Shown here in pieces: positions 11,078 to 43,149 of a DNA stretch of 64,000 nucleotides. Location of the stretch: the sequence record PZ583742.1. One strand, given 5' to 3'. Numbering within the stretch: the first letter of the stretch is position 1; the number at the start of each line of letters is the position of its first letter. The position numbers and the translations under genes were made by a program. The DNA comes from a phage. The notes under the pieces were generated by a model that was not told the origin of the DNA, ran no database searches, and worked only from the letters and a program-made list of their open reading frames with translations.

Positions 11078-11080
11078 GTG

Positions 11081-11109
11081 TTTACAACGGCAATGGATTG
11101 CCGTATGAT
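11081..11109 (+). promoter_or_regulatory. early sigma70 promoter with stem-loop in spacer
   Basis: TTTACA 11081-11086, 17-nt spacer holding CGGCAAT/ATTGCCG hairpin, TATGAT 11104-11109. Confidence 0.55.
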
Positions 11110-11146
11110 TACCTCATCAACTGATGAATAACTTAAGGATATTAAA

Positions 11147-11389
11147 ATGGAAACATTAATTGCGGGTACTGTTGTTCTTGGTGCGGGTTCTTTCTTCCTG
11201 GCTGCACTGGCATATTTTCTGCCGTGGATTATCGCGCTGCTGCGTGGTACCAAAAGTAATTGTGGAATCTTCTTTGTTAACCTCCTGTTAGGTTGGACAA
11301 TGGTCGGATGGTTTATTGCATTTATCTGGGCACTCGTTGCTGAACGTAAATCAAACGCACAAGTAATTATCATCAAGGAAGCAAAATGA
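11147..11389 (+). CDS. imm: superinfection immunity protein Imm
   Basis: 80-aa two-TM protein with LPWIIALLRG...LLGWTMVGW motifs; position after gene 43. Confidence 0.7.
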   Translation: METLIAGTVVLGAGSFFLAALAYFLPWIIALLRGTKSNCGIFFVNLLLGWTMVGWFIAFIWALVAERKSNAQVIIIKEAK

Positions 11390-11529
11390 AGATAATTACA
11401 ATTATTGTACTGATTGCATTTTTTAGTATGTCAATCTATTGGGCAATAATGACTCCGCATATGATTCCAACTTTAATTTTGGGTTGGGTATTTTTGGGGC
11501 TCCAAGCCCGCTATGAATGTTTTAATTGA
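11386..11529 (+). CDS. small hydrophobic peptide (47 aa)
   Basis: ATGA overlap with imm stop; single predicted TM segment. Confidence 0.3.
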   Translation: MKIITIIVLIAFFSMSIYWAIMTPHMIPTLILGWVFLGLQARYECFN

Positions 11530-11539
11530 GGAAAATACA

Positions 11540-12043
11540 ATGAAAAAGTTAGCTATCGCAGCTGTTATGCTGCTATCTGGTTGTGCTTACCAGGGTGATG
11601 TTGTTAATGCCAACGAGATTGGTAAAGCGCGAATTGCTGCAGACCGTCAGGTGCATAATGGTTCCTTTGATTTCAAAGGCGGTACTGGACTTATCTACAA
11701 ACGCGACAACAATCAATGTGGAAACAACTGCGCGAAATATGCTCAACAAGAAATTGAGTACAAACGCGAGCAAGCTGCGAAGCATGACGAAATCATTGCC
11801 AAGCTGGAAGCAGAAACTAAGCGACAAAATGACCTGGATACTGTTAACCAGATTTCACAGGTCTGCATGTCATATATCAATATGCAGATAAACATCATGC
11901 GCGCAGAAGCTTATCAGGCAGCGGAGACGGGTTCTCCAAAAGCTAATGAGTACCGCGATATGTATCAGCGTTCTGCTCAAAACCGTCTGAGCTATATTAA
12001 TAAATGTGTGGCTAAAGAGAAAGCACGCCAAGGTATTAACTGA
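11540..12043 (+). CDS. predicted lipoprotein (167 aa)
   Basis: Signal peptide MKKLAIAAVMLLSGC with lipobox LSGC; GAGGA SD upstream. Confidence 0.5.
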   Translation: MKKLAIAAVMLLSGCAYQGDVVNANEIGKARIAADRQVHNGSFDFKGGTGLIYKRDNNQCGNNCAKYAQQEIEYKREQAAKHDEIIAKLEAETKRQNDLDTVNQISQVCMSYINMQINIMRAEAYQAAETGSPKANEYRDMYQRSAQNRLSYINKCVAKEKARQGIN

Positions 12044-12150
12044 TGTTATTATTACTTCTGATTGTTGTAACAGTAATTGGTTTGTTGCTATTAGAAAAGC
12101 GTAATAAGCATTTGAATGAAGAAAACTGGAAACGTGGTAACGTTTACTAA
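12043..12150 (+). CDS. small hydrophobic peptide (35 aa)
   Basis: TGATG overlap with lipoprotein stop; Leu-rich TM segment. Confidence 0.3.
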   Translation: MLLLLLIVVTVIGLLLLEKRNKHLNEENWKRGNVY

Positions 12151-12177
12151 ATTGCTCTGAACTGCGAGAAGAATATT

Positions 12178-12306
12178 ATGATTGGTATGTTATTGATTAG
12201 CCTATGGCTGTTGTCTGCATTTGGTATTGGGTTTATGTACTGGTGGGACAAACGTCAGACCCGGAAGATTGTTGAACGTGCAATTAATCGTGGATTCAAT
12301 CGTTAA
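12178..12306 (+). CDS. small hydrophobic peptide (42 aa)
   Basis: ATG after AGAAGAA purine run; TM segment then basic tail. Confidence 0.3.
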   Translation: MIGMLLISLWLLSAFGIGFMYWWDKRQTRKIVERAINRGFNR

Positions 12307-12307
12307 T

Positions 12308-12332
12308 TGCTCTAAAAATACAGTGATATAAT
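12308..12332 (+). promoter_or_regulatory. MotA-box-like middle promoter candidate for uvsX
   Basis: TGCTCTA 12308-12314 (one mismatch) and TATAAT 12327-12332. Confidence 0.35.
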
Positions 12333-12385
12333 TATCCTATCTTAAACCTGTGAGAAAAATATAATGGTGCCTATGGAAAAAATGA

Positions 12386-13564
12386 ATGTCTATTGCAGAT
12401 TTGAAATCCCGTTTGATTAAAGCTTCTACATCCAAAATGACCGCGACTCTTACCAAGTCCAAGTTTTTTAATGATAAAGATGTAGTTCGTACAAAAATCC
12501 CGATGCTGAACATTGCAATCAGCGGTGCACTAGATGGTGGTATGCAGTCAGGTTTGACTATTTTTGCTGGTCCGTCAAAACACTTTAAATCCAATATGGG
12601 TTTAACGATGGTCTCTGCATATATGAACAAATACCCCGATGCAATCTGTTTGTTCTATGATTCAGAATTTGGTATCACAGAAGCCTATCTTCGTGCAATG
12701 AAAGTTGACCCGGAACGTGTTATCCACACACCAATCCAGTCGGTTGAACAATTGAAAGTTGATATGGTTAACCAGCTTGAAGCAATTGAGCGTGGTGAAA
12801 AAGTCATTATCTTTATTGACTCAATCGGTAACATGGCATCGAAAAAAGAAACAGAAGATGCGATGAACGAAAAAGTCGTTGGCGATATGACTCGTGCTAA
12901 ATCCCTGAAATCTCTGTTCCGTATTGTTACCCCGTATTTTAGTATCAAGGATATTCCTTGTGTCGCGGTTAACCATACAATCGAGACGATTGAGATGTAT
13001 AGCAAAACCGTTATGACCGGTGGCACAGGTGTTATGTATTCCGCGGACACCGTATTCATTATCGGCAAACGTCAGATTAAAGAAACTGGTAAAGAACTTG
13101 AAGGCTTCCAATTTGTTCTGAACGCCGAAAAATCTCGTATGGTCAAAGAGAAAAGTAAATTCTTCATTGATGTAAAATTCGATGGCGGTATTGACCCGTA
13201 TTCTGGCCTGCTTGATATGGCAATGGAAATCGGATTTGTGGTGAAACCAAAAGTTGGTTGGTATAACCGTGAATATCTTGATGTTGAGACCGGTGAAATG
13301 GTCCGCGAAGAAAAATCATGGCGCGCAAAAGATACTAACTGCACCGAATTCTGGGGCCCATTGTTCAAACACGAACCTTTCCGTGACGCAATCAAACGCC
13401 ATTACCAACTGGGTGCAATCGATAGCAATGCTGTTGTTGATGCCGAAGTTGATGCGCTTATTGCCTCCAAGGTTGAAAAATACACTGCTCCTGAAGGTAA
13501 GACAAAACCGTCTGCTGCAGATATTGAAAACGATTTAGATATGATGGAAGACCTTGATGAATGA
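12386..13564 (+). CDS. uvsX: recombinase UvsX (RecA-like)
   Basis: Walker A GPSKHFKS; 392 aa; close to T4 UvsX throughout. Confidence 0.95.
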   Translation: MSIADLKSRLIKASTSKMTATLTKSKFFNDKDVVRTKIPMLNIAISGALDGGMQSGLTIFAGPSKHFKSNMGLTMVSAYMNKYPDAICLFYDSEFGITEAYLRAMKVDPERVIHTPIQSVEQLKVDMVNQLEAIERGEKVIIFIDSIGNMASKKETEDAMNEKVVGDMTRAKSLKSLFRIVTPYFSIKDIPCVAVNHTIETIEMYSKTVMTGGTGVMYSADTVFIIGKRQIKETGKELEGFQFVLNAEKSRMVKEKSKFFIDVKFDGGIDPYSGLLDMAMEIGFVVKPKVGWYNREYLDVETGEMVREEKSWRAKDTNCTEFWGPLFKHEPFRDAIKRHYQLGAIDSNAVVDAEVDALIASKVEKYTAPEGKTKPSAADIENDLDMMEDLDE

Positions 13565-17667: not shown

Positions 17668-17671
17668 TATG
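17626..17671 (+). repeat. 46-bp direct repeat, copy 1
   Basis: Matches 17978-18023 with 3 mismatches; spans a gene end, stop and next ATG. Confidence 0.8.
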
Positions 17672-18019
17672 AATGATTACAATTTTCTGAATTTTGAACT
17701 GGCGAGCAATAATGATGGTAATGCTCATTATGAATTCCGCGACCCTCGGTTTAATCAGGCGATTGGTTATATTATCGTTAAAGATGATATTATCATAAAG
17801 GCTCGCTCATTCCTGGTAATGAAAGGACCTTATGAAGATACTCGCGGTTATCCGTTTGATAAAAAGAATGTGCGTGATTGCGCCGCCTGGATAACGGGAA
17901 ATCCCAAAATTGGAGTCATGTTATCTGATGAAGCGAACGACATTTTGAATGGGGTAGGCAAAGCTCAAGAACAGTCTGTCGACGACCAGATTTTTAATGC
18001 CTTCATGAAGCGAGGTTAA
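17669..18019 (+). CDS. hypothetical protein (116 aa)
   Basis: Ends with SVDDQIFNAFMKRG, encoded by the second repeat copy. Confidence 0.4.
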   Translation: MNDYNFLNFELASNNDGNAHYEFRDPRFNQAIGYIIVKDDIIIKARSFLVMKGPYEDTRGYPFDKKNVRDCAAWITGNPKIGVMLSDEANDILNGVGKAQEQSVDDQIFNAFMKRG

Positions 18020-18627: not shown

Positions 18628-19656
18628 ATGTCATATATTGATAAAGAATTTGCAGTCAGAGCTTTATCGTATCAACCACGTTATAGAGAAGTCACCGGGA
18701 GCACATTTAAAGCAAACTGTCGTTGCAAGGTTTGTGGGGACTCCCAGAAAGATTCACACAAGGCTCGATTCTGGGCGTATACTAATCCGACTGATGGCGC
18801 GGTTTACGTGAAATGTTTTAACTGTGACTACTCCACGCATATAAGCAAATACATAAAAGAGTTTGAGCCGGATTTACACCGGGAATATATGGTTGAGAAG
18901 TATAAGGAGAATGCATTTGGGCGACAACGCACTGAAGTTGCAGAAGCTCCGAAAGAACCAGAAAAAACTCCGGTTATTGAGCAGCTTGCTTTTTGTGAAA
19001 GACTCGATACTTTACCAGAAGCACATCCGATAATTAAGTATGTAAAAAGTCGGTGTATTCCGAGCAATGTTTGGAACCGGTTATGGTTTACAAACAAATG
19101 GCCTGCATTAGTTAACTCCGTTAATCCTGGGACGTATAAGAATGAAACGAATGAACCACGCTTGGTTATTCCTATCTTCAACGGCAAAAAAGAAATCGAA
19201 TCTTTCCAAGGACGAGCTCTTCGCAAAGATGCACCACAAAAATATATCACAATCAAAGCTCACCCAGAAGCTTCCAAAGTCTATGGCGTAGACAAGATTG
19301 ATGAGCGTAAACGCGTATGGGTAATGGAAGGTCCAATTGATAGTTTGTTTATCCCTAACAGCATTGCGATAACCGGTGGAACATTAGCATTGGAAGCTGT
19401 TCCTTACCCAGAAACCAGAGTATGGGTGATGGATTCAGAAGCAAGACATCCTGATACGATTAAACGTATGAAGAAATTAGTCGATGCAGGAGAAGCTGTT
19501 ATGTTCTGGGACAACGCACCGTGGCATACGAAAGATATAAATGAAATGATTAAATCGGAAGGAGCAACGCCTGAGCAAATTGAAGCCTATATGAATGATA
19601 ATATTGCACAAGGTTTAATGGCAAAACTTCGATTATCCAAATATGCAAAAATATGA
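18628..19656 (+). CDS. 61: DNA primase gp61
   Basis: Zinc ribbon CRCKVCGDS...CFNCDY; 342 aa; C-terminal LMAKLRLSKYAKI as in T4 gp61. Confidence 0.95.
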   Translation: MSYIDKEFAVRALSYQPRYREVTGSTFKANCRCKVCGDSQKDSHKARFWAYTNPTDGAVYVKCFNCDYSTHISKYIKEFEPDLHREYMVEKYKENAFGRQRTEVAEAPKEPEKTPVIEQLAFCERLDTLPEAHPIIKYVKSRCIPSNVWNRLWFTNKWPALVNSVNPGTYKNETNEPRLVIPIFNGKKEIESFQGRALRKDAPQKYITIKAHPEASKVYGVDKIDERKRVWVMEGPIDSLFIPNSIAITGGTLALEAVPYPETRVWVMDSEARHPDTIKRMKKLVDAGEAVMFWDNAPWHTKDINEMIKSEGATPEQIEAYMNDNIAQGLMAKLRLSKYAKI

Positions 19657-20420
19657 ATTATCTAAAATTATATAATAAATTAATAGACAAAGGCCTCGCA
19701 AGGGGCCTAAACAAAAAGAATATCCCATTTTATACGGAGTCCCATCATATACTACCAAGGTGTTTGGGTGGACCTGACACCGAAGATAATTTGGTATTGT
19801 TATCAGCAAGAGAACATTTTATTGCACATTTGTTACTTTTTAAAATTTATCGACTTTCTAAATTAATGTTTGCTATACACCGGATGTGCGGTGACAAATT
19901 TGATAGCGCAAAATATGAATGGATGCGAAAAGAACATAGTAAAGCCGTTAGTGAACATATGTCAAACTTATGGAGTCAATCCGAGTTTAAAGACAAAATG
20001 TTAATTGCTTTACACAAGCGACATAACGACCACCCTGTGTCTGATAAAACCAAAAGTAAAATAGCTAACTCATTAAAATTGTATTATCAAAATAATCCAG
20101 TTACTGATGAACAACGGCAAAAGAATCGCGATGCACAAATGAGAAGATTTAAAGAAAATCCGCAAACCGAAGAAACGAAAAAGTTGCGGCGAGAAGCATG
20201 CCGAAAGGCAACTGGAACACCGGTTTGTAGATGCGATGAATTTGGTAATATACTTGAAAAGTATAATTCGGGAGCTGAGGCAAAGGAATTATTACAATTG
20301 GCGGGCAATACTCAAAATATATACACAGCTTGTAAAAGAAATAAAAAGACAGGCCGAATGTATAGGTCAAACGGCCATTTTTGGAAGTATCAAGACGAGG
20401 AAGGGATTCCGGTAAAGTAA
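19653..20420 (+). CDS. HNH homing endonuclease with NUMOD-like DNA-binding repeats
   Basis: HNH core ESHHILPRCLGGPDTEDNLVLLSAREHFIAH; basic repeated C-terminal half; ATGA overlap with gene 61 stop. Confidence 0.7.
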   Translation: MNYLKLYNKLIDKGLARGLNKKNIPFYTESHHILPRCLGGPDTEDNLVLLSAREHFIAHLLLFKIYRLSKLMFAIHRMCGDKFDSAKYEWMRKEHSKAVSEHMSNLWSQSEFKDKMLIALHKRHNDHPVSDKTKSKIANSLKLYYQNNPVTDEQRQKNRDAQMRRFKENPQTEETKKLRREACRKATGTPVCRCDEFGNILEKYNSGAEAKELLQLAGNTQNIYTACKRNKKTGRMYRSNGHFWKYQDEEGIPVK

Positions 20421-20848: not shown

Positions 20849-20886
20849 TAACATACAAACAACATGAATTGATAAGGAAAAATATA

Positions 20887-21405
20887 ATGGCTCATTTTAA
20901 TGAATGTTCTCAACTGATTGCTGGTGTTGATAAAGCTCAGGGCGCTTATGATAATGCAATTTTTGAAGGCACTGACCCACTGCAAGTTATGCTTGATATG
21001 CAGAAATCATTGCAGGTTCGTCTGGCTAAAGAAAAACCAGAATATAACGAACATCCTGATAACCTGGCGACTGCTGGTGAAGTTGTTACCTGGCTCCGCA
21101 ACCAGAAAGATTATATTGATGATGAATTCCGTGAACTGATTACTGCATTAGGTGGCATGTCCAATGGCGAGAAAGCTGCCTCGGCCGTATGGAAACCATG
21201 GAAAGCACAACATGGCGAAATGCAGCAAACCCTGATTAATGATTTATCTCCTGAAGACCAGCTCGAAATTAAATTTGAGATGATTGATATCCTGCACTTT
21301 GTCCTGAACATGTTCCACGGTCTTGGACTGACTGCAGAAGAAATCTTTAAATTGTATTATCTGAAAAATGCCGAAAACTTTGCTCGTCAAGACCGAGGTT
21401 ATTAA
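20887..21405 (+). CDS. 56: dCTP pyrophosphatase gp56 (all-alpha NTP-PPase)
   Basis: MAHFNEC...DPLQVMLDMQ...FKLYYLKNAENFARQDRGY close to T4 gp56; start at 20887 after AAGGA. Confidence 0.85.
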   Translation: MAHFNECSQLIAGVDKAQGAYDNAIFEGTDPLQVMLDMQKSLQVRLAKEKPEYNEHPDNLATAGEVVTWLRNQKDYIDDEFRELITALGGMSNGEKAASAVWKPWKAQHGEMQQTLINDLSPEDQLEIKFEMIDILHFVLNMFHGLGLTAEEIFKLYYLKNAENFARQDRGY

Positions 21406-31329: not shown

Positions 31330-31353
31330 GCTTTAAAATATGTGACTTATAAT
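31329..31353 (+). promoter_or_regulatory. MotA-box middle promoter candidate
   Basis: TGCTTTA 31329-31335, TATAAT 31348-31353. Confidence 0.45.
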
Positions 31354-31359
31354 ACCTCC

Positions 31360-32067
31360 ATGAACTTAAAACAATTTATTGAAGAAAATCTTTTAACTAA
31401 GAACCCGAATCGTCTTAACGGTAATTTGTTCAAAAATGATTTAGAATTTGCCAAGAAATTCTGGGAAAAATATCCAGAAGAAGCAAATGTCTTTAGAACA
31501 GAAGCACTGCATTGTCAAGGAGGTAAAAGAGACCAACATCCGTACAATGAGGTCTGCTACCGTATTTTACATGATATAAAAGGAAAAGTCTTATGTAAGT
31601 GTGGTAAACCTGTTAACTATCATACATTTGCTACTGGCTACCATGAATTTTGTTCCGTTAAATGTCAGGGTGGTGGTATATTTGAAGAAGAGCGTATTTG
31701 TCCTGTTTGCGATACTAAGTATATGGCTACGAATAGGACTCAAAAATATTGTTCAGATTCCTGTGGTAAAGAAGCAAGAGATACTCAATCACTGGACTTG
31801 CCATATAGTCATTCCATAAAGATGAAAAAGCGCGACGTTTTGAAGTTAATTGAGGATACTCCGTATTGTGAAATTTGTAAAATAAAACTAACAAACAATT
31901 CGACTTCTTTATCAAAAAGCACTTGGTTCAATGTAGACCATTGCCACTCGACTGGTAAAGTCCGAGGTATTTTATGTTCAAAATGCAACATAGGCCTAGG
32001 AATGTTTAAAGACAATATTGCTTCATTAGAAACTGCGATAGAATACTTGAAACAAAGCAAGGAATAA
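31360..32067 (+). CDS. endonuclease VII-like His-Me finger nuclease with N-terminal zinc fingers (putative homing endonuclease)
   Basis: C-terminal DHCHSTGKVRGILCSKCNIGLG; several Cys pairs; first ATG (31360) near the predicted transcript start, so start uncertain. Confidence 0.55.
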   Translation: MNLKQFIEENLLTKNPNRLNGNLFKNDLEFAKKFWEKYPEEANVFRTEALHCQGGKRDQHPYNEVCYRILHDIKGKVLCKCGKPVNYHTFATGYHEFCSVKCQGGGIFEEERICPVCDTKYMATNRTQKYCSDSCGKEARDTQSLDLPYSHSIKMKKRDVLKLIEDTPYCEICKIKLTNNSTSLSKSTWFNVDHCHSTGKVRGILCSKCNIGLGMFKDNIASLETAIEYLKQSKE

Positions 32068-32073
32068 TTGATT

Positions 32074-33906
32074 ATGATTGAAAATAAAATTGAAATGCTT
32101 TCAGATAAAGACCATTGTTTGAAACGTCCGGGAATGTACATCGGAAGTGTTTCATATGAAGAATACGAAAGATTTTTATTTGGTGAGTATACTAAAGTAT
32201 CTTATGTGGCGGGTGTATTAAAACTAGTTGATGAGATTATCGACAACTCGGTTGATGAAGCTATACGTACAAATTTCAAATTTGCCAATAAAATTTCCGT
32301 TGATATCTCTTTGACTGATAACAAAGTTACTGTTGAAGATAATGGTCGTGGTATTCCGCAGGCTGTTGTCATAACTCCAGAAGGTGAAGAATTACCTGGC
32401 CCTGTAGCGGCCTGGACGAAAACCAAAGCGGGTGGGAATTTCGGTGATGATAAAGAACGTGTAACCGGCGGCCAGAATGGTGTTGGTTCAAGTCTTACCA
32501 ATATTTTTTCAATCCTTTTTACTGGGACCACATCTGACGGTAAAAATGAGCTTCGTGTAAGTTGTTCAAATAATGCCGATAATGTATCATGGAAAACCAA
32601 ACCAACCAAATCCAATGGTACCAAGGTTGAGTTTATTCCAGACTTTAGTCATTTTGAAATGAACAGTTTTGATAAAATTTATCTGGATATTACACTTGAC
32701 CGTCTGCAGACTCTTGCTGTTGTTTATCCTGATATTGAATTCAAATTCAATGGTAAAAAGGTACAAGGTCAGTTTAAAAAGTTTGCTAAACAATATGATG
32801 ATGAAATCATTATCCAGGAACAAGATAATTGCTCAATTGCAATCGGTCGGTCACCTGACGGATTCAGACATCTGACATATGTCAACAACATCCACACAAA
32901 AAATGGTGGACACCATATTGAATGCGTTATGGATGAAATGTGTGATGTGTTAATCCCGGCGATTAAACGCAAGTATAAAATTGAAGTAACCAAAGCACGC
33001 GTTAAAGAATGTATTACATTGTTGATGTTTATTCGCAATATGAAGAACATGCGATTTGATTCCCAGACCAAGGAGCGATTGACTTCCACTGCCGGTGAAA
33101 TTAAATCACATATCCAGGTCAATGGCAAAAAGTTAGCTGGTTCGTTGTTAAAATCAGAAGCTATTCTGACGCCTATCATTGAAGCTGCATTGGCTCGTAA
33201 ATTGGCTGCAGAGAAAGCAGCAGAGACTAAAGCAAATAAGAAAGCTTCAAAGGCCAAGGTACAAAAGCATATCAAAGCCAACGAATGGGGTAATGATAAG
33301 CTGGAAACGACTCTATTCCTGACCGAAGGAGATTCTGCAACGGGTCCGTTTATCAAGGTTCGTGACCGTGAATTGCAAGGTGCTTATCCGTTACGTGGTA
33401 AGTTTAAAAACACATGGGGTCTGAAAGCTGTTGAAGTTATGAAGAACGCTGAAGCCTTTGATGTGTGTGCGATTACTGGTTTAACGATTGGACAACCGGC
33501 CGAGAATATGAATTACCGAAACATTGCTATCATGACAGATGCGGATGTGGATGGTGTTGGTAGTATCTATCCATCGTTATTGGCGTTTTTCAGTAACTGG
33601 CCAGAGCTGTTCCATGAAGGACGAATTCGCTTTGTGAAAACTCCTGTTATTATTGCACAGCTCAAAGATAAACAAGAATGGTTCTATTCTCTTCCTGATT
33701 ACGAAGAAGCTAAGGATAAACTTCCGAAGCATACCATTCGATATATCAAGGGGCTTGGTTCTCTGGAAGATTCAGAGTACAAACGCGTATTGCTCGAGCC
33801 AGTATTCGAAGTTGTTCAATTGCCCGACAATTGGAAAGAACTGTTCGAAATGCTATTCGGTAAAGATTCCCAGCAGCGTAAAGACTGGATGAATGCGACG
33901 CTATAA
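32074..33906 (+). CDS. 39: DNA topoisomerase II large subunit (gp39 with the gene-60 part contiguous)
   Basis: GyrB-like ATPase N-terminus, TOPRIM LTEGDSATGP; single 610-aa frame. Confidence 0.9.
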   Translation: MIENKIEMLSDKDHCLKRPGMYIGSVSYEEYERFLFGEYTKVSYVAGVLKLVDEIIDNSVDEAIRTNFKFANKISVDISLTDNKVTVEDNGRGIPQAVVITPEGEELPGPVAAWTKTKAGGNFGDDKERVTGGQNGVGSSLTNIFSILFTGTTSDGKNELRVSCSNNADNVSWKTKPTKSNGTKVEFIPDFSHFEMNSFDKIYLDITLDRLQTLAVVYPDIEFKFNGKKVQGQFKKFAKQYDDEIIIQEQDNCSIAIGRSPDGFRHLTYVNNIHTKNGGHHIECVMDEMCDVLIPAIKRKYKIEVTKARVKECITLLMFIRNMKNMRFDSQTKERLTSTAGEIKSHIQVNGKKLAGSLLKSEAILTPIIEAALARKLAAEKAAETKANKKASKAKVQKHIKANEWGNDKLETTLFLTEGDSATGPFIKVRDRELQGAYPLRGKFKNTWGLKAVEVMKNAEAFDVCAITGLTIGQPAENMNYRNIAIMTDADVDGVGSIYPSLLAFFSNWPELFHEGRIRFVKTPVIIAQLKDKQEWFYSLPDYEEAKDKLPKHTIRYIKGLGSLEDSEYKRVLLEPVFEVVQLPDNWKELFEMLFGKDSQQRKDWMNATL

Positions 33907-34653: not shown

Positions 34654-36888
34654 ATGATTTTAGAAACTGAAAAAGAAACAATCCTTGGTAATGGTGCCAA
34701 AGCATCAGCATTCACAATCCAGGCATCTCCAAAGGTGTTTAAGATTCTGACCAGCGACCTTTATACAAACAAGGTGCGCGCGGTTGTTCGTGAGCTGATT
34801 ACCAATATGATTGATGCTCATATGCTCAATGGCTGTCAGGATAAATTCATTGTTCAAGCTCCTGGCGAACTGGACCCACGTTTTGTATGTCGTGACTTTG
34901 GTCCAGGTATGAGTGATTTCCAGATTCGTGGTGATGAAAATACCCCAGGTCTGTATAACAGTTTCTTTGCATCATCCAAGGCTGAATCCAACGATTTTAT
35001 TGGTGGCTTTGGTCTGGGTTCTAAATCTCCGTTCAGTTATACAGAGACGTTTAGCCTGATTTCATATCATGATGGTCAAGTTAATGGTTATGTCGCTTAT
35101 ATGGACGGCGATGGTCCACAGATTAAGCCAACCTTTAGCGAACCAATGAAACCTGGCGACCGCACAGGGATTGAAGTTGTTGTCCCGGTTGATAGTAATG
35201 ATTTTGGTAAGTTCCGCCACGAGATTGCATATATCATGCGCCCATTTGCTGGACTGGCTGAAGTACAAGGCGTAGGCGAAATTAATTATTTCCCGGAATT
35301 TGATGATTATTATGCTCCAGAGCGTATTGATTATAGCAGCCCAGAACGTTATGGACTTTATGCAATTTATGGCGGAATTGTTTATCCGATTGATGGCGGG
35401 TATACAAAGAAAACCTGGATGACTGCCAAAAATGATGTTGTCTTTATTAAGTTCCCGATGGGTTCGCTGGATATCGCACCTTCTCGTGAAGCATTATCGC
35501 TGGACAAACGTACGGTCGCAAATATCGTTGAACGTATTGAAACCCTTGATAAGAAAGTCATGGAAGACGATTGTAAGAAATGGCAGGAATCAGAATGTCT
35601 CCGCCATACATATCGCGAATTGCAGAATCTGAATTATGAAGCTCGTAATTTTCTGAAAGCTCGTAATGCTGAAACGAAATTTACGAAATCACAATTGACC
35701 TTTAACCAGATGTACGAAATGTTCGAGCTGGACAAAGACCTTATTAATGCCGGGGTTGTTTATGATATCTATCGTGACACTCGTCTGAAACGTCTGCGCA
35801 ACTCAAGCTCAAACTCGAACACAGCAAGTCTGACGAGCATGTTTGGTATTCAGAATGATACCTTGAACATTGTTATTGATGATGTTAAAGGGCGAATTGC
35901 GATGATTCGCGGTATCAGTTCAATGTTGTATGATACCAGTGCAAAAGCCAAAAAGCTTATTGCATCTGGTAAAGTCCCGACTCGTCAGGGTAGTAGTTTA
36001 CTGTTTGTTGACCCGACCAGCGAAATTCAAACACGGTTGATGGTTCAACTCCAGGAACGATTTAAAGGCGATACAGTTAATATCTATCGTACGTCTGAAC
36101 TGACTGCCCTTGTAAAAGACTGGATTCCGGTTGCGGACCCGAAAGAGCGTGTTAAGTCAAAGACTCCATCGGTGATTCGTTGGACTAAAACTAATGGCAA
36201 ATGGCAGTCTGTTGAAGAATTTACATGTGCAGCTGATGCAGAGGAAATCGATGGTTATGCTGTATTCATTAACCGCAGTAGCATTTCCCCGTTGAATCAG
36301 GAATATGGCACCACGACCTTCGGGACCCAGACATTGTGTAAACTGGCAAACCTGTTGGAAATCAATGAATTCTGTGTTATTCGTCCACAGCTTCAGAAAA
36401 AGGTTACCAAGCTGGCGCAGTGTGATTGTCTGATTGAAGCTGCGGTCAATCGTTATGTAGAATTGATTGATGCGGTTGATGTGGACCAGTACATTGCCGC
36501 TTCAAGCCGTTCGCGTTATTATATTCCTATCCTGTCTGAATATGCAGAACTGAATTTTATGTTCAAGTATTTTTATGCAAAAGATGTTCAGAAAGATGTG
36601 AATACTGACTATGCCGAACTAATGCAGTTCAATAAGTTCTTTGCTTATAACGCATATAACAGTGGAACGGTTGATAAAACCATGCAGGAAACACTGGTCC
36701 TTTGTAATAAGATTTATTACGACCTGACCAAAAACGCTTCAGTAACAAGCGATAAAATGGTTTTTGAATTTGAAAAGAATCACCCGATTGTTTCACACTT
36801 TTTATATAACCGTAACGCTATGTCAACTGAACAAGTACAGAACGTTGCTCAAATCATGAAGGCCGTGGAAGCGGCCAATAAGGAATAA
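34654..36888 (+). CDS. rIIA: rIIA protein (GHKL-type ATPase fold)
   Basis: N-terminus MILETEKETILGNG and N-box VRELITNMIDA match T4 rIIA; 744 aa. Confidence 0.9.
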   Translation: MILETEKETILGNGAKASAFTIQASPKVFKILTSDLYTNKVRAVVRELITNMIDAHMLNGCQDKFIVQAPGELDPRFVCRDFGPGMSDFQIRGDENTPGLYNSFFASSKAESNDFIGGFGLGSKSPFSYTETFSLISYHDGQVNGYVAYMDGDGPQIKPTFSEPMKPGDRTGIEVVVPVDSNDFGKFRHEIAYIMRPFAGLAEVQGVGEINYFPEFDDYYAPERIDYSSPERYGLYAIYGGIVYPIDGGYTKKTWMTAKNDVVFIKFPMGSLDIAPSREALSLDKRTVANIVERIETLDKKVMEDDCKKWQESECLRHTYRELQNLNYEARNFLKARNAETKFTKSQLTFNQMYEMFELDKDLINAGVVYDIYRDTRLKRLRNSSSNSNTASLTSMFGIQNDTLNIVIDDVKGRIAMIRGISSMLYDTSAKAKKLIASGKVPTRQGSSLLFVDPTSEIQTRLMVQLQERFKGDTVNIYRTSELTALVKDWIPVADPKERVKSKTPSVIRWTKTNGKWQSVEEFTCAADAEEIDGYAVFINRSSISPLNQEYGTTTFGTQTLCKLANLLEINEFCVIRPQLQKKVTKLAQCDCLIEAAVNRYVELIDAVDVDQYIAASSRSRYYIPILSEYAELNFMFKYFYAKDVQKDVNTDYAELMQFNKFFAYNAYNSGTVDKTMQETLVLCNKIYYDLTKNASVTSDKMVFEFEKNHPIVSHFLYNRNAMSTEQVQNVAQIMKAVEAANKE

Positions 36889-36889
36889 T

Positions 36890-37861
36890 ATGTTTAATAT
36901 CAAATGTATGTCTAAAGCCGAACAAGCTGATGTGGTCCAGATGTATTCAACAGGCAATTATACCCAGCCTGAATTGGCAGAATATTTTGCCGTGTCCGTC
37001 GACACCATTCGCCGCGTTTTGAAAAATGATAAAGAATCAAAATTAGCTAAAACCATTTCTGCATCACTGAAAGCAGCTGTTGGCGTGGCGATTAATGCTC
37101 CGGTGACAGTAACGGTTGAAGTCCCGGTTACTGATACAATCGGTGGAAGCCGCCCGGAAATCGTATGGAACGCATCGAGTAAATTCGTTTCCATCACTGA
37201 AGGCCGTACAGTCTGGAACGCAACAAAAGACCATAAACACTTTGATGATATTATTCAGGCATTGATTGAATTCCGTTATGAAGATGCTATCGAGTTTATC
37301 TCAATCAAAGCTGCAGTACAAAAATATGTGAAAGGTGATGTGCGTATTGAAGGTGGTAGTTTGTTCTATCAGGGAATTGAACTGCGCTCTGGCCTGGTTA
37401 CTCGTATCATTGATTCAATGCAAAATGGTGAAGACTTTGAATTCTATCTGCCGTTCCTTGAGAATCTCCTTGAGAATCCGAGTGAGAAAGCTGTACAGCG
37501 TTTGTTTGACTTCCTGGTTGCAAACGATATCGAAATCACCGAAGACGGTCATTTCATCGCATGGAAAATGGTTCGTGCAACTTACAAAGATTGTCACTCA
37601 AACACATTCGACAACAGCCCTGGTCAATATGTTAAAATGCCGCGCTCTCGTGTGAATGACAATGACGAACAGACCTGTTCAACCGGGTTGCATGTTTGCT
37701 CTAAAGGCTATATCGGAAGTGGTTTTGGTCATGGTGATGGACGCATCGTATCCTGTAAAGTTCACCCGCGTGATGTTGTAAGTATCCCGGTGGATTATGG
37801 GGATAGTAAGATGAGGGTCTGTGGTTACCTGGTCCTTGATGATGTAACTGAACAATTTTAA
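36890..37861 (+). CDS. rIIB: rIIB protein
   Basis: MFNIKCMSKAEQ...VSVDTIRRVLKN and C-terminal HVCSK...VHPRDVVSIP match T4 rIIB. Confidence 0.9.
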   Translation: MFNIKCMSKAEQADVVQMYSTGNYTQPELAEYFAVSVDTIRRVLKNDKESKLAKTISASLKAAVGVAINAPVTVTVEVPVTDTIGGSRPEIVWNASSKFVSITEGRTVWNATKDHKHFDDIIQALIEFRYEDAIEFISIKAAVQKYVKGDVRIEGGSLFYQGIELRSGLVTRIIDSMQNGEDFEFYLPFLENLLENPSEKAVQRLFDFLVANDIEITEDGHFIAWKMVRATYKDCHSNTFDNSPGQYVKMPRSRVNDNDEQTCSTGLHVCSKGYIGSGFGHGDGRIVSCKVHPRDVVSIPVDYGDSKMRVCGYLVLDDVTEQF

Positions 37862-37894: not shown

Positions 37895-38092
37895 ATGTTA
37901 GGTTTCCAAGCACGTGTAGTTGAAGAATACGACCAGCTGGTTTTGAAAATCAATGCTCTTGAAGAATTTATTAAGGGCGGTGTTTTTGAAACTCTTGACA
38001 TCCGTCAACAAGGTCTTTTGATTGCACAACTCGACGCGATGGGCGCTTATGCTCATATACTGGCAGTTCGTATCTCTTATTTTGGTGAATAA
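37895..38092 (+). CDS. hypothetical protein (65 aa)
   Basis: GAGG SD then ATG. Confidence 0.4.
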   Translation: MLGFQARVVEEYDQLVLKINALEEFIKGGVFETLDIRQQGLLIAQLDAMGAYAHILAVRISYFGE

Positions 38093-38095
38093 ATT

Positions 38096-38416
38096 ATGAT
38101 TAACTATATGAACGTTGGTGATGAATCTATTAACGAAATTCGGTTGCATGGTAATCATGTTGCGGATATTGTTTATTGTGTTGATTGCCATTATGCTTCT
38201 ACAAAGTCAACTGGCCGGTTATATGCGAGAGACATCATTCTTGCAACGAAAGAAGAACTTCGTAGTCTGGACCATTCCACTCTAGCCGAAAGTGCCAGAA
38301 TTTATTATGGCGTCGTTCATGTAGACAAAGTTTATATTGGCAGTGATTATCAAGAGCAAGCTGAGCAAAATTCTTTGGATATTGTCGAAAAATCCGATAT
38401 GTATTTTAAAGGATGA
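38096..38416 (+). CDS. hypothetical protein (106 aa)
   Basis: ATG 3 nt after preceding stop. Confidence 0.4.
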   Translation: MINYMNVGDESINEIRLHGNHVADIVYCVDCHYASTKSTGRLYARDIILATKEELRSLDHSTLAESARIYYGVVHVDKVYIGSDYQEQAEQNSLDIVEKSDMYFKG

Positions 38417-38420
38417 GCTG

Positions 38421-39014
38421 ATGATTCAGAAGAGTAAAACATGGGAGCATCTGAAAAAGATGCCCTCCTTTCTTTATACAAAGGAAGACTTAACCCCTGA
38501 ATCCCTGCAAAAGATTGTAGACACGGCTAGGTATTCATTGCGTAAAGACCCAGGTCAGGACCGTGAGCAAGTCATGCAAAGATGTATGGTGGCCACAATG
38601 GCTGAACAAGCTATTGCTAAATGGACCTCCGGTTTTTTATGTGGCGGTGATGAAGATTACGATAATCCTTATTCCTTTGCATTTGATGTAGTTTCGAAGG
38701 AAGGGGTAAGAATCGAAGTCAAGACTCATCAGTCTGGTTCCAAATGGATATCCGTGCATACTGGTCACCAGGGTGATTATCCGCATGGTTACGGGGTCAA
38801 TCTTGGTCCTTTTATGCAACACAAGCTTGCTGACCTTATGATTATGTTTAATGTAAAAGAGACTCTCAAAGGTTATAGATTTAAACCAAAATTCCTTGCT
38901 GGACCTGGTGCTTTCGTTCCTGAGTCTGGTCTTGTGCAGAAGTCACAAGGGGATGGTTGGTACCTCCGTTCTTGTTCAGAAGAAAAATTTCCCTATCACC
39001 GGTTTACAAGCTGA
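38421..39014 (+). CDS. hypothetical protein (197 aa), possible PD-(D/E)xK nuclease
   Basis: FAFDVV...RIEVKT resembles a D...E-x-K core; lies where T4 denB sits, but I cannot confirm similarity. Confidence 0.35.
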   Translation: MIQKSKTWEHLKKMPSFLYTKEDLTPESLQKIVDTARYSLRKDPGQDREQVMQRCMVATMAEQAIAKWTSGFLCGGDEDYDNPYSFAFDVVSKEGVRIEVKTHQSGSKWISVHTGHQGDYPHGYGVNLGPFMQHKLADLMIMFNVKETLKGYRFKPKFLAGPGAFVPESGLVQKSQGDGWYLRSCSEEKFPYHRFTS

Positions 39015-39026
39015 ACCAACTGTGTA

Positions 39027-39060
39027 ATAATGTCCTCATACCAACAAATGAGGACATTAT
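39027..39060 (+). promoter_or_regulatory. SD-sequestering hairpin (translational control element)
   Basis: 13-bp perfect stem ATAATGTCCTCAT/ATGAGGACATTAT; 3' arm contains GAGGA SD and ends 2 nt before ATG 39062. Confidence 0.5.
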
Positions 39061-39061
39061 C

Positions 39062-39337
39062 ATGGAACACGTTACTACTCACAACATCAAACAAATCCTT
39101 ATCCAAGCACTCAAAAACAACAACATCAATTTTCCAACCCATGAAATTTTTGATGTGGCATTCAACGAAGTCCAGGGTCAAGTTGCATATTATGACGTTA
39201 TCATTTATCTTTCAGAATTTGAAGTATACCACCTGACTGAAATTGCTTTCTATCTATATCGTGGGACTGCAGATTTTACTGGGGTCGTGAATGCAGTTGG
39301 CGCATATAAAGAAGTTAAAGAACAAATGCACAATTAA
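39062..39337 (+). CDS. hypothetical protein (91 aa)
   Basis: ATG directly after the hairpin. Confidence 0.4.
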   Translation: MEHVTTHNIKQILIQALKNNNINFPTHEIFDVAFNEVQGQVAYYDVIIYLSEFEVYHLTEIAFYLYRGTADFTGVVNAVGAYKEVKEQMHN

Positions 39338-40920: not shown

Positions 40921-41370
40921 ATGACTACTTACATGACCCGTCGTGACGTACTGAATGCTGGCGCTACCACTGTTGCTTACATCCATAATGGCAATTATGT
41001 TGCAGGGCGTCCAACTAAAGAAGCTATCACTCAACCAGGTTTTTATTTCGTGGTTAAAGGTGAAGGTGAATCACGTATTGTTGCCGCACGTTTTTATGTT
41101 GGTAACCAACGTTCACAACAAGGGTTTGACACTGTATTAAGTCACATCCGCAAACAGCGTTCTCAACTGTCTCGCACAATGGCGAACAATGGGGTTATCT
41201 ATGAAGTCCTGTTTGTCCCAGTTTCTAAAATGAAACCTCTGACAACTGGTTACGGTAAAGGTCAAATTGCGATGGCGTTCACTCGCTCACATAATTCTGA
41301 TTGTCAGACCCTTTCAGAAATGAATCGCATGCTTGCTGATAACTTTAAATTCATTCTGCAGAGCTATTAA
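40921..41370 (+). CDS. hypothetical protein (149 aa); Ndd-like by position and size only
   Basis: GAGGAAA SD then ATG; no motif I can verify. Confidence 0.35.
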
Positions 41371-41769: not shown

Positions 41770-43149
41770 ATGTCTGACGTTTTAAGTATGATGTCCAAAC
41801 AGTTCAGTGATTCCGTGGGGACCCTTAACCCACGCAGTCTAAAAGACATTATTGATGTGGAAGCATTGTCATATGCTATCTACACTGTGGAAGGTCGTGC
41901 CATCCCAAACATGATTGATGGTTTTAAACCAGTTCACAGATTTGTTATGGCGAGAGCATTAGACCTGGCTCGTGGTGATAAGAATAAATTCCATAAGGTT
42001 GCATCCATCGCAGGTGGCGTAGCTGATTATGGTTATCACCATGGCGAAGCATCAGCGGAAGAAGCAACTTCTGGTCTGGTCGCAACATATAAAAATGAAT
42101 ACCCCATGTTTGATGGACAAGGCAACTTTGGTTCCAGAATGGTGCCAGAAGCATCATCAGCTCGTTATGTATTCGCAAGGGTTTCAAAGAACTTTTATAA
42201 CTTGTTTAAGGATACAGAATATGCTCCGGTCCATCCTGATGAAGAACATAAGCCTCCTGCTTTTTATCTTCCTGTTATTCCTACTGTATTACTTAACGCC
42301 ACTTCTGGGATTGCTGTTGGCTTCGCTACTGATATACTTCCTCATTCGTTCCAGGACGTCAAGGAAGCTGTTAAAGCTATCGTGGAAGGTCGTGAGCCGG
42401 TTGCTCCGAAAGTAAAATATCCAGAATTCCGCGGTGAAGTTGTTGAGCTGGAAGAGCCTGGTAAGTATGAGCTTCATGGCACATACAAAATGACTTCCCG
42501 GACTCAAATGGAAATTACTGAAATCCCGGTCCAATGGAACCTGGAAAAATATACAAGTAAAATACTTGACCCGCTGGAAGAGAAAGGTTTTATCACCTGG
42601 AAAGATAACTGCGGTGAACATGGTTTTGGGTTTAAGATTAAATTCCGCAAAGAATACAAGTTGGATGGCACTGAAGAAGAGAATCATGAGAAAATCATGA
42701 AAGACTTTGGTCTGATTGAGAAACTCTCCCAGAACTTAACTGTGCTTAATCACAAAGGCAAATTAGCTGAATACACCAACACGCTTGACCTGATTCGCGA
42801 TTTCGTGGATGTCCGTAAGACCTATGTTCAAGTGCGAATTGACAGCAAGATTAAAGAAACTGAAGCGGCATTTAAACTGGCCCGTGCGAAAGTCTTCTTT
42901 ATTAAAGAAGTGATTGATGGTAAGGTTATTATCCAGGGGAAACCTCGTAAGAAGTTGATTGAGGAACTCCAGGCGAGTGAAATATATGGCGATTATGCAG
43001 AGAAGTTAGTGGCGATGAACATCTACCATATGACCTCTGATGAAGCCAAGAAGCTTGCAGACGAAGCAAAGGCTAAGAAAGCTGAGCATGAGTACTGGAA
43101 GACAACTGATGTTAAAACTGAATACCTTAATGATTTGGAGGCTCTATGA
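41770..43149 (+). CDS. 52: DNA topoisomerase II medium subunit gp52 (GyrA-like)
   Basis: AIPNMIDGFKPVHRFVMARALDL and C-terminal EYWKTTDV match T4 gp52; 459 aa. Confidence 0.92.
   Translation: MSDVLSMMSKQFSDSVGTLNPRSLKDIIDVEALSYAIYTVEGRAIPNMIDGFKPVHRFVMARALDLARGDKNKFHKVASIAGGVADYGYHHGEASAEEATSGLVATYKNEYPMFDGQGNFGSRMVPEASSARYVFARVSKNFYNLFKDTEYAPVHPDEEHKPPAFYLPVIPTVLLNATSGIAVGFATDILPHSFQDVKEAVKAIVEGREPVAPKVKYPEFRGEVVELEEPGKYELHGTYKMTSRTQMEITEIPVQWNLEKYTSKILDPLEEKGFITWKDNCGEHGFGFKIKFRKEYKLDGTEEENHEKIMKDFGLIEKLSQNLTVLNHKGKLAEYTNTLDLIRDFVDVRKTYVQVRIDSKIKETEAAFKLARAKVFFIKEVIDGKVIIQGKPRKKLIEELQASEIYGDYAEKLVAMNIYHMTSDEAKKLADEAKAKKAEHEYWKTTDVKTEYLNDLEAL

What the first reader, a model, noticed from the sequence alone, without database searches (positions are those of the whole stretch)
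38421..39014. Possible PD-(D/E)xK nuclease downstream of rIIB
The 197-aa protein has FAFDVV...RIEVKT, compatible with a D...E-x-K core, and sits where T4 has denB. If it is a nuclease it may target host or unmodified DNA.
Basis: inference. Interest (0 to 1): 0.35.

Follow-up and report, generated by a model that had tools for sequence, protein, structure and literature searches.

The report
Phage T4-type endonuclease IV (denB)

Summary
The ORF at 38421-39014 (+, 197 aa) is real and carries the quoted FAFDVV...RIEVKT motif. It is the denB (T4 endonuclease IV) orthologue, not a gene that merely sits at the denB position. It matches the DenB PHROG at E=2e-80, is 100% identical to the annotated 'DNA endonuclease IV' of Escherichia phage vB_EcoM_RZ (Gaprivervirus), and is about 46% identical to T4-type DenB. 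It lies in the rIIA-rIIB-denB-ndd-52 arrangement.

The PD-(D/E)XK reading holds. Across 35 family members, some only about 20% identical, the only invariant residues are E62, D89, E99 and K101. An AlphaFold2 model (pLDDT 94.4, pTM 0.90) retrieves almost only restriction-endonuclease-fold structures from the PDB. NhoI and Eco15I of the BisI family come first (E about 4e-4, prob 0.98-0.99), but TM-scores are low (0.3-0.5), so no solved structure is close. Sequence profiles alone give only sub-threshold hits.

Residues known from T4/T2 mutants are kept: G71, S176->S175, G180->G179, W181->W180; W88 is F88 here. A 2025 paper already reports the PD-(D/E)xK motif in DenB, so the finding is correct but known.

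One puzzle remains, already raised in print. This phage genus has denB, alc, denA and dCTPase but no detectable dCMP hydroxymethylase, so how its own DNA escapes DenB is unknown.

The parts
38421..39014 (+). denB coding sequence (197 aa plus stop): T4-type endonuclease IV orthologue
   Evidence: ORF. PHROG 1360 'DenB-like DNA endonuclease IV' at E=2.1e-80 over residues 1-196. 100% identical to the RZ 'DNA endonuclease IV', 97.5% to VR25 denB, about 46% to RB32/T4-type DenB.
38408..38413 (+). Shine-Dalgarno AAAGGA, 7 nt upstream of the ATG; it abuts the stop codon (38414-38416) of the upstream 106-aa ORF
   Evidence: Read directly from the sequence.
38604..38606 (+). Codon of E62, the acidic residue on the core alpha-helix (H48-68) of the PD-(D/E)XK site
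   Evidence: Invariant in 35 of 35 sequences. Lies in helix 48-68 of the model.
38685..38687 (+). Codon of D89, the 'PD' aspartate (FD here, WD in T4)
   Evidence: Invariant. The neighbouring T4 W88R mutation abolishes activity (PMC2175332; mapping).
38715..38723 (+). Codons of E99-V100-K101, the (D/E)xK triad on strand 97-103
   Evidence: E99 and K101 invariant, V100 conserved at 97%. Strand E97-103 in the model.
38943..38960 (+). Codons of S175-W180 (SQGDGW), equivalent to T4 S176...G180-W181, the segment implicated in reading dC tracts and binding DNA
   Evidence: Mapping. T4 S176N loses polarised cleavage. T2 G180E and W181* escape retron Eco2 and were placed at the DNA-binding interface (PMC12916289).
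38967..39011 (+). C-terminal extension (residues 183-197, RSCSEEKFPYHRFTS) that T4-type DenB (185 aa, ending ...GWYLSI) lacks
   Evidence: Alignment A1 and the C-terminal tails. F195 and T196 are invariant within the extended subgroup. The model predicts a strand at 192-194.
34654..37861 (+). rIIA (34654-36888) and rIIB (36890-37861), upstream synteny anchors
   Evidence: ORFs. RZ annotation 'protector from prophage-induced early lysis'. RB32 shows the order rIIB - denB.1 - ORF - denB.
40921..41370 (+). ndd (nucleoid disruption protein), downstream synteny anchor
   Evidence: PHROG 1102 at E=1.1e-59. RZ annotation.
41770..43149 (+). Gene 52 (topoisomerase II medium subunit), downstream synteny anchor
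   Evidence: ORF. RZ and RB32 annotations.

Best explanation
The gene encodes the DenB (T4 endonuclease IV) orthologue of a Gaprivervirus, a T4-like coliphage. It is a small, single-domain, metal-dependent nuclease of the PD-(D/E)XK fold. E62 on the core helix, D89 on the second core strand, and E99 and K101 on the third form the site that binds Mg2+ and activates water. By homology with the T4 enzyme, it should cut single-stranded DNA on the 5' side of unmodified deoxycytidine. The C-terminal segment (S175, G179, W180) would contact DNA and read further dC residues in a tract. In the infected cell it would fragment host and plasmid DNA wherever single strands are exposed, supplying nucleotides and preventing replication of cytosine DNA. 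Shown here: orthology, synteny, intact and invariant catalytic residues, the predicted fold, and retention of most residues known from T4/T2 mutants (W88 is F88). Inferred only: the ssDNA and dC specificity of this particular protein, and how the phage's own DNA is spared.
For: Orthology: PHROG 1360 at E=2e-80. 1091 phage records hold a match, most annotated DenB or endonuclease IV, with 100% identity to RZ and about 46% to T4-type. Full-length alignment with RB32 DenB. Same gene order rIIB ... denB ... ndd ... 52 as in RZ and RB32.

Active site: E62, D89, E99 and K101 are the only invariant columns among 27 and 35 members reaching about 20% identity.

Fold: the AF2 model has pLDDT 94.4 and pTM 0.90, and all five models agree. 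Element order is helix(E62) - strand - strand(D89) - strand(E99xK101) - strand - helix - strand. Foldseek against the PDB gives NhoI (E=4e-4, prob 0.98-0.99) and Eco15I_Ntd first, then EcoRV, SwaI, NlaIV, HincII, PvuII, MvaI, RecE and Cas4. NhoI and Eco15I are described as PD-(D/E)XK enzymes with WD...QVK motifs (PMC11347163); the fold class of the others is from my own knowledge. Sub-threshold Pfam hits among family members fall on NOV_C (8 of 27), Hjc and PDDEXK_5.

Literature: T4 Endo IV needs divalent cations, cuts 5' of dC in ssDNA, and does not cut glucosyl-hmC DNA (PMC1635256). W88R is inactive and S176N loses polarity (PMC2175332). DenB was reported to have a conserved PD_D/ExK motif (PMC12405507). 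The T2 escape mutations G71R, G180E and W181* lie at residues conserved here.
Against: No sequence-profile method reached significance against any solved structure or any Pfam family in the local copy. Foldseek TM-scores to PDB hits are only 0.3-0.5 with rmsd around 10 A, so the fold assignment rests on a predicted model plus motif conservation, not on a close structural relative. I could not inspect model coordinates to confirm that the four residues cluster in space. No activity data exist for this protein. The genus lacks a detectable dCMP hydroxymethylase, so it is unclear how a dC-specific nuclease is tolerated.
Confidence: 0.85

Rival explanations
1. Same orthologue and same fold, but substrate preference or biological role has shifted in this lineage. 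For example, it might tolerate or ignore ordinary cytosine in phage DNA, recognise another sequence or base, or be held in check by a phage factor. The reason to consider this is that the genus has no known hydroxymethylcytosine pathway to protect its own DNA.
For: Two papers report that Gaprivervirus lacks the hmC enzyme but keeps denB, alc, denA and dCTPase (PMC8056088; PMC12115623). tblastn and phmmer with RB32 gp42 and the adjacent RB32 ORF041 (annotated as similar to T2/T6 glucosyltransferases) find nothing in the window or in the whole RZ genome. No gene 42 or beta-gt lies between gene 43 and uvsX. The protein is only about 46% identical to T4 DenB and has a 15-residue C-terminal extension next to the DNA-reading segment.
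Against: The residues tied to dC-tract reading and DNA binding in T4/T2 (S176, G180, W181) are conserved. The C-terminal extension is not special to this genus: Pectobacterium phage PM2 has it too, and Klebsiella phage homologues align out to residue 196. Retention of dCTPase, Alc and DenA argues that the phage still treats cytosine DNA as foreign, which fits an unidentified cytosine replacement better than a changed DenB.
Confidence: 0.12
2. The D...ExK match is coincidental, and the protein has another nuclease fold or is not a nuclease.
For: The bare pattern appears in 81% of shuffled sequences. No Pfam or PDB sequence hit reaches threshold. Foldseek TM-scores are low.
Against: The four motif residues are the only invariant ones in the family. 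The top-scoring PDB fold matches are all restriction-endonuclease-fold proteins, and such proteins make up most of the top 50. T4 DenB is a biochemically proven Mg2+-dependent endonuclease. The motif has been reported independently.
Confidence: 0.02
3. The gene is a decayed, inactive remnant of denB, kept only by linkage.
For: None specific. It is suggested only by the absence of the hmC pathway in the genus.
Against: The reading frame is intact and full length. All catalytic residues and most mutationally defined residues are kept (W88 is F88). The protein is 97.5-100% conserved among Gapriverviruses, with 10 records at 99% or more and 25 at 95-99%.
Confidence: 0.01

Closest known systems
Bacteriophage T4 endonuclease IV (DenB); PHROG 1360; Pfam PF26887 on the homologues
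   Same: Full-length homologue (about 46% identity) at the same genomic position between rIIB and ndd. It has the same E...D...ExK residues (T4 E62, D89, E102, K104). G71, S176, G180 and W181 are conserved.
   Different: 197 aa against 185 aa, because of a 15-residue C-terminal extension. T4 W88 is F88 here. A 3-residue deletion precedes the ExK strand. The host phage genus has no recognisable gene 42 or glucosyltransferase, unlike T4.
BisI-family modification-dependent restriction endonucleases NhoI and Eco15I_Ntd (PDB 8rpx, 8q5n, 8q5o)
   Same: Best structural matches to the model (Foldseek E=4e-4 to 6e-3, prob 0.91-0.99). They are small PD-(D/E)XK domains with an aromatic-D motif (WD in NhoI) and an xVK triad, and their specificity depends on the modification state of cytosine.
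   Different: Only 9-17% identity and TM 0.3-0.5. They use QVK/QIK rather than EVK. They are dimeric enzymes that cut double-stranded GCNGC and require methylated or hydroxymethylated cytosines, the opposite preference to DenB, which cuts single-stranded DNA at unmodified dC.
Classical type II PD-(D/E)XK restriction enzymes of the EcoRV/PvuII/HincII group
   Same: Same core fold and catalytic motif. They recur throughout the Foldseek list.
   Different: These are weak matches (E 0.03-1). They are sequence-specific, double-strand-cutting dimers paired with methyltransferases. DenB is a stand-alone phage enzyme acting on single strands with loose sequence preference.
E. coli endonuclease IV (Nfo, AP endonuclease, TIM-barrel)
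   Same: The name only.
   Different: Unrelated fold and chemistry. No hit to the AP-endonuclease family in Pfam. The shared name 'endonuclease IV' in annotations is a historical coincidence (my own knowledge).

Membership tests
T4 DenB / endonuclease IV family | Significant full-length sequence similarity to T4-type DenB | tested here: met
   PHROG 1360 at E=2.1e-80 covering residues 1-196. tblastn E about 1e-47 and 45-46% identity to RB32 and other Tequatrovirus denB. Alignment A1.
T4 DenB / endonuclease IV family | Position in the rIIB - denB - ndd - 52 early-gene block | tested here: met
   Window ORFs and PHROG/Pfam hits, compared with the RZ and RB32 annotations.
T4 DenB / endonuclease IV family | Conservation of residues shown by mutation to matter (T4 W88, S176; T2 G71, G180, W181) | tested here: met
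   Mapping: G71, S175, G179 and W180 are identical; W88 is replaced by another aromatic residue, F88. Mutant data from PMC2175332 and PMC12916289.
T4 DenB / endonuclease IV family | Divalent-cation-dependent cleavage 5' of dC in single-stranded DNA, with no cleavage of (glucosyl-)hmC DNA | not testable with these tools
   Known for the T4 enzyme only (PMC1635256).
PD-(D/E)XK nuclease superfamily | Conserved acidic residue on the core helix, plus D on the second strand, plus (D/E)xK on the third strand | tested here: met
   E62, D89, E99 and K101 are the only invariant columns in 35 sequences. Their placement on H48-68, the 89-91 strand and E97-103 is seen in the model.
PD-(D/E)XK nuclease superfamily | Restriction-endonuclease-like alpha-beta-beta-beta-alpha-beta core fold | tested here: met
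   Predicted model with pLDDT 94.4 and pTM 0.90. The significant Foldseek PDB hits, and most of the top 50, are PD-(D/E)XK enzymes, with NhoI at E=4e-4 and prob 0.98-0.99. Caveat: this is a prediction, TM is only 0.3-0.5, and coordinates were not inspected.
PD-(D/E)XK nuclease superfamily | Significant profile match to a curated PD-(D/E)XK family or a solved member by sequence | tested here: inconclusive
   Only sub-threshold hits: NOV_C in 8 of 27 members (best E=0.008), Hjc at E=0.0016 in one distant member, PDDEXK_5 at E=0.11. Nothing in PDB sequence searches. HHpred-type profile-profile comparison against Pfam or PDB was not available.
BisI family (NhoI/Eco15I) | Sequence homology, WD...Q(V/I)K motif, dimeric recognition of modified GCNGC | tested here: not met
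   9-17% identity and TM 0.3-0.5. The triad is EVK, not QVK (PMC11347163). This is a structural neighbour, not a member.

The most novel reading that the evidence does not exclude
An intact, strongly conserved DenB is kept, together with dCTPase, Alc and DenA, in a phage genus (Gaprivervirus) with no detectable dCMP hydroxymethylase or glucosyltransferase. If this DenB still cuts at ordinary dC, the phage must replace or mask cytosine by a pathway not yet identified, or carry an unknown inhibitor of its own nuclease. Otherwise the enzyme's base preference has changed. Either way the denB gene would be a handle for finding a new DNA modification or a new self-protection mechanism. The idea is already raised as a hypothesis in PMC8056088 and PMC12115623.
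Probability: 0.35. Interest if true: 0.6.

Novelty: already known. Interest (0 to 1): 0.12.

Why it matters
For the finding itself, little changes. The gene is the known denB, it is annotated as such in an identical GenBank protein, and its PD-(D/E)xK motif was published in 2025. The work here adds independent support for the fold: the four catalytic residues are the only invariant ones across the whole, small, phage-restricted family (34 clusters among 1.84 billion representatives), and a high-confidence model has no close solved relative. DenB matters in practice because it limits generalized transduction by T4-like therapeutic phages and is the trigger sensed by the retron Eco2 defence system. 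This protein keeps the residues that T2 mutates to escape Eco2, so I predict (an untested inference) that this phage would also trigger it. The open point is how a phage without a known hydroxymethylcytosine pathway lives with this nuclease.

Tried and rejected
Pfam scan of the protein gave only a meaningless sub-threshold hit, NOMO1-like. The precomputed family PF26887 seen on homologues is not in the local Pfam copy, so its name and clan could not be read.

phmmer and hmmsearch against PDB sequences, with the single protein and with two family profiles, gave only chance hits: photosystem I subunit, LSP1/PIL1, spidroin.

The first structure model, from 18 close homologues, was uneven: one model at pLDDT 80.7 and four near 64. 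I replaced it with a model from a 35-sequence alignment, which gave pLDDT 94.4. The Foldseek result was the same.

I tested whether the 176-aa ORF at 11513-12043, which sits where T4 has gene 42, could be a replacement cytosine-modifying enzyme. I rejected this. It has no Pfam hit, belongs to PHROG 1754 of unknown function, and also occurs outside this genus, in JS10- and VR5-type coliphages and in Serratia, Erwinia and Enterobacter phages, one of which has an arabinose 5-phosphate isomerase annotated next to it.

Searches for gene 42 and the adjacent RB32 ORF041 (annotated as similar to T2/T6 glucosyltransferases), by tblastn and phmmer over the window and the whole RZ genome, found nothing. 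phmmer also failed to detect thymidylate synthase, so its sensitivity is limited.

A literature search for restriction or modification data on VR7-type phages found nothing usable. The terminator-like hairpins inside the 5' end of denB (38445-38489) are one small palindrome read on both strands, and I set them aside as chance.

Full report
THE OBSERVATION. The ORF is as described: ATG at 38421, stop at 39012-39014, + strand, 197 aa. An AAAGGA ribosome-binding site lies 7 nt upstream, and the preceding 106-aa ORF ends at 38416. rIIA (34654-36888, 744 aa) and rIIB (36890-37861, 323 aa) lie upstream. ORFs on the opposite strand inside the gene are short (43 and 61 aa) and have no support. A loose D-x(5-30)-[DE]-x-K pattern is found in 81% of shuffles of this protein. 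The motif alone therefore carries no weight; its conservation does (see the fold test below).

WHAT IT IS. The protein matches PHROG 1360 'DenB-like DNA endonuclease IV' at E=2.1e-80 over its whole length. tblastn against 50,697 phage records finds it in 1091 of them, mostly T4-like phages of Escherichia, Klebsiella, Shigella, Acinetobacter and relatives. Where annotated, it is usually called denB or endonuclease IV. It is 100% identical to the 'DNA endonuclease IV' of Escherichia phage vB_EcoM_RZ (Gaprivervirus), 97.5% to VR25 denB, and 45-46% to the Tequatrovirus (T4, RB32) protein. The window as a whole is 95-98% identical to RZ. Gene order is the same as in RZ and RB32: rIIA, rIIB, a 65-aa ORF, a 106-aa ORF (DUF7418), denB, several small ORFs, ndd (40921-41370, PHROG 1102 at E=1e-59), two small ORFs, and gene 52 (41770-43149). 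So the gene is the denB orthologue, not merely a gene at the denB position.

THE FOLD TEST. Sequence methods alone do not settle the fold. The local Pfam copy gives nothing. PDB sequences give nothing, either with the single protein or with family profiles.

A full HMMER scan of 1.84 billion representative proteins shows a small family: 34 clusters at E<=1e-3 and 20 at E<=1e-10. I aligned 27 and then 35 members, the most distant about 20% identical. The only invariant positions besides the initiator Met are E62, D89, E99 and K101; V100 and D138 exceed 90%. This is the canonical PD-(D/E)XK arrangement: an acidic residue on the core helix, an aspartate on the second strand, and (D/E)xK on the third, as summarised for NhoI in PMC11347163.

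A first AlphaFold2 model from 18 close homologues was uneven. A second, from the 35-sequence alignment, is confident: mean pLDDT 94.4, pTM 0.90, and all five models between 93.9 and 94.4. Its elements run helix 48-68 (E62), short strand 72-73, strand around 90 (D89), strand 97-103 (E99, K101), strand 111-114, helix 129-134, then strands 139-147 and 152-160.

Foldseek against the PDB gives the same picture for both models. NhoI comes first (E=3-5e-4, prob 0.98-0.99), then the Eco15I N-terminal domain. After them come EcoRV, SwaI, NlaIV, HincII, PvuII, MvaI, HinP1I, Sau3AI, RecE, AspBHI, AbaSI, PvuRts1I and Cas4-type proteins, essentially all of them restriction-endonuclease-fold enzymes. TM-scores are only 0.3-0.5, so no solved structure is close; the similarity is at the level of the core.

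In the viral predicted-structure library the model matches other DenB models at TM 0.8-0.87. Further down it matches proteins named 'Restriction endonuclease', 'NO VEIN C-terminal domain' and Cas4. Sub-threshold Pfam hits among family members fall repeatedly on NOV_C (8 of 27 members, best E=0.008), Hjc (E=0.0016) and PDDEXK_5. From my own knowledge, these families belong to Pfam's PD-(D/E)XK clan. I could not read model coordinates, so the spatial clustering of the four residues is inferred from topology, not measured.

LINK TO EXPERIMENTS ON T4 AND T2. T4 endonuclease IV needs a divalent cation. It cuts the bond 5' of dC in single-stranded DNA with a TCA preference. It does not cut double-stranded DNA, RNA or glucosyl-hmC DNA, and it is lethal when expressed in E. 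coli (PMC1635256). W88R is inactive, and S176N loses the polarised cleavage of dC1-dC6 tracts (PMC2175332). T2 mutants that escape the retron Eco2 defence carry G71R (near the active site), G180E or W181* (DNA-binding interface), and purified DenB nicks the retron's msDNA upstream of dC (PMC12916289).

In the alignment these positions map to G71, F88 (next to D89), S175, G179 and W180 of the window protein; T4's E62, D89, E102 and K104 map to E62, D89, E99 and K101. Most of the tested residues are thus conserved, and the dead W88R mutation sits beside the catalytic aspartate. This fits the proposed active site.

HOW IT MOST LIKELY WORKS. Early in infection the enzyme binds stretches of single-stranded cytosine DNA. 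In the T4 model these are exposed after endonuclease II nicks the DNA and the gp46/47 exonuclease widens the nicks. It then hydrolyses the phosphodiester 5' of dC with a PD-(D/E)XK metal site, while the C-terminal segment contacts neighbouring dC residues. The result is fragmentation of host and plasmid DNA and a block to replication of cytosine DNA. Orthology, the active-site residues and the fold are supported here. The substrate specificity of this protein is inferred.

COMPARISON WITH WHAT IS KNOWN, AND NOVELTY. The identical protein is already annotated as DNA endonuclease IV.

The protein differs from T4 DenB in four ways: 46% identity, a 3-residue deletion before the ExK strand, F for W at position 88, and a 15-residue C-terminal extension (RSCSEEKFPYHRFTS). 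That extension is also present in Pectobacterium phage PM2 and in metagenomic relatives, and Klebsiella phage homologues align out to residue 196. The name 'endonuclease IV' has nothing to do with E. coli Nfo.

THE ONE OPEN POINT. Two comparative papers note that Gaprivervirus phages keep denB, alc, denA and the dCTPase but lack the dCMP hydroxymethylase, and they suggest an unknown non-canonical base (PMC8056088; PMC12115623). This holds in the window. Between gene 43 (8363-11077) and uvsX (12386-13564), where T4-type phages carry imm, 42 and beta-gt, there is only imm, small ORFs and a 176-aa protein of unknown function. A dCTPase-like gene is present at 20869-21405.

tblastn and phmmer with RB32 gp42 and the adjacent RB32 ORF041 (annotated as similar to T2/T6 glucosyltransferases) find nothing in the window or across the whole RZ genome. 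The RZ annotation lists Alc, endonuclease II, dCMP deaminase and thymidylate synthase, but no hydroxymethylase or glucosyltransferase. The 176-aa ORF is not a lineage-specific replacement, because it also occurs in phages outside this genus, including JS10- and VR5-type coliphages and Serratia, Erwinia and Enterobacter phages. How this phage's DNA escapes its own DenB therefore remains unexplained. That question, not the fold, is where something new could lie.

VERDICT. The feature is an ordinary, already known gene, so interest is low. The residual novel reading is an unknown cytosine protection or a changed DenB specificity in this genus. I give it about 0.35 probability and moderate interest if true.

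Noticed in passing
window 39003-39065: A perfect 13-bp inverted repeat (39027-39039 / 48-39060, loop 8 nt) lies just after the denB stop. It extends to a stem that includes the GAGGA Shine-Dalgarno and the ATG (39062) of the next ORF (39062-39337, PHROG 17571, function unknown). As RNA it folds at -20.2 kcal/mol, z = -4.4, and no shuffle out of 200 folds as well. A sigma-70-like site (TTTACA-17-AATAAT with an upstream TG, 39003-39031) would start transcripts inside the 5' arm. This resembles the T4 arrangement in which read-through transcripts hide a ribosome-binding site and promoter-proximal transcripts expose it. The sequence is identical in phage RZ.
   Followed up: partly
window 11078-12385 (between gene 43, 8363-11077, and uvsX, 12386-13564); also 20869-21405: T4-type phages have imm, gene 42 (dCMP hydroxymethylase) and a glucosyltransferase at this spot. 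Here there is only imm, small ORFs and a 176-aa protein (11513-12043, PHROG 1754, no Pfam hit). No gp42 homologue was found in the window or in the closest complete genome, yet a dCTPase-like gene (20869-21405), and in RZ also Alc and endonuclease II, are present. The literature flags this as a possible unknown DNA modification in Gaprivervirus.
   Followed up: partly
window 34654-36888 versus L001 2236-4465 (phage RZ): rIIA is one intact 744-aa ORF in the window, but the RZ GenBank record annotates it as two overlapping CDS (1275 and 966 nt). This suggests a frameshift or a sequencing error in that record.
   Followed up: no
window 19653-20420 and 31342-32067: There are two endonuclease-like ORFs next to replication genes. 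A 255-aa homing-endonuclease-like protein (PHROG 655, E=6e-45) overlaps the end of the primase gene (18628-19656). A 241-aa protein with an endonuclease VII/HNH-like C-terminal half abuts the 612-aa ORF at 32068-33906, which corresponds to RZ's topoisomerase II large subunit. Both are probably mobile elements.
   Followed up: no
window 37895-38092 and 38096-38416: The two small ORFs between rIIB and denB belong to recently defined families: the 65-aa protein to Pfam crAss001_48 (E=5e-19) and the 106-aa protein to DUF7418 (E=7e-26). The second ends 4 nt before the denB start codon, so translational coupling is possible. Neither has a known function.
   Followed up: no
window 17669-18019: A 116-aa ORF gives a sub-threshold Pfam match to AdfA (anti-DarT factor A): E=5e-4, 19.8 bits against a cut-off of 27, over its C-terminal 85 residues. 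It could be an anti-defence gene.
   Followed up: no
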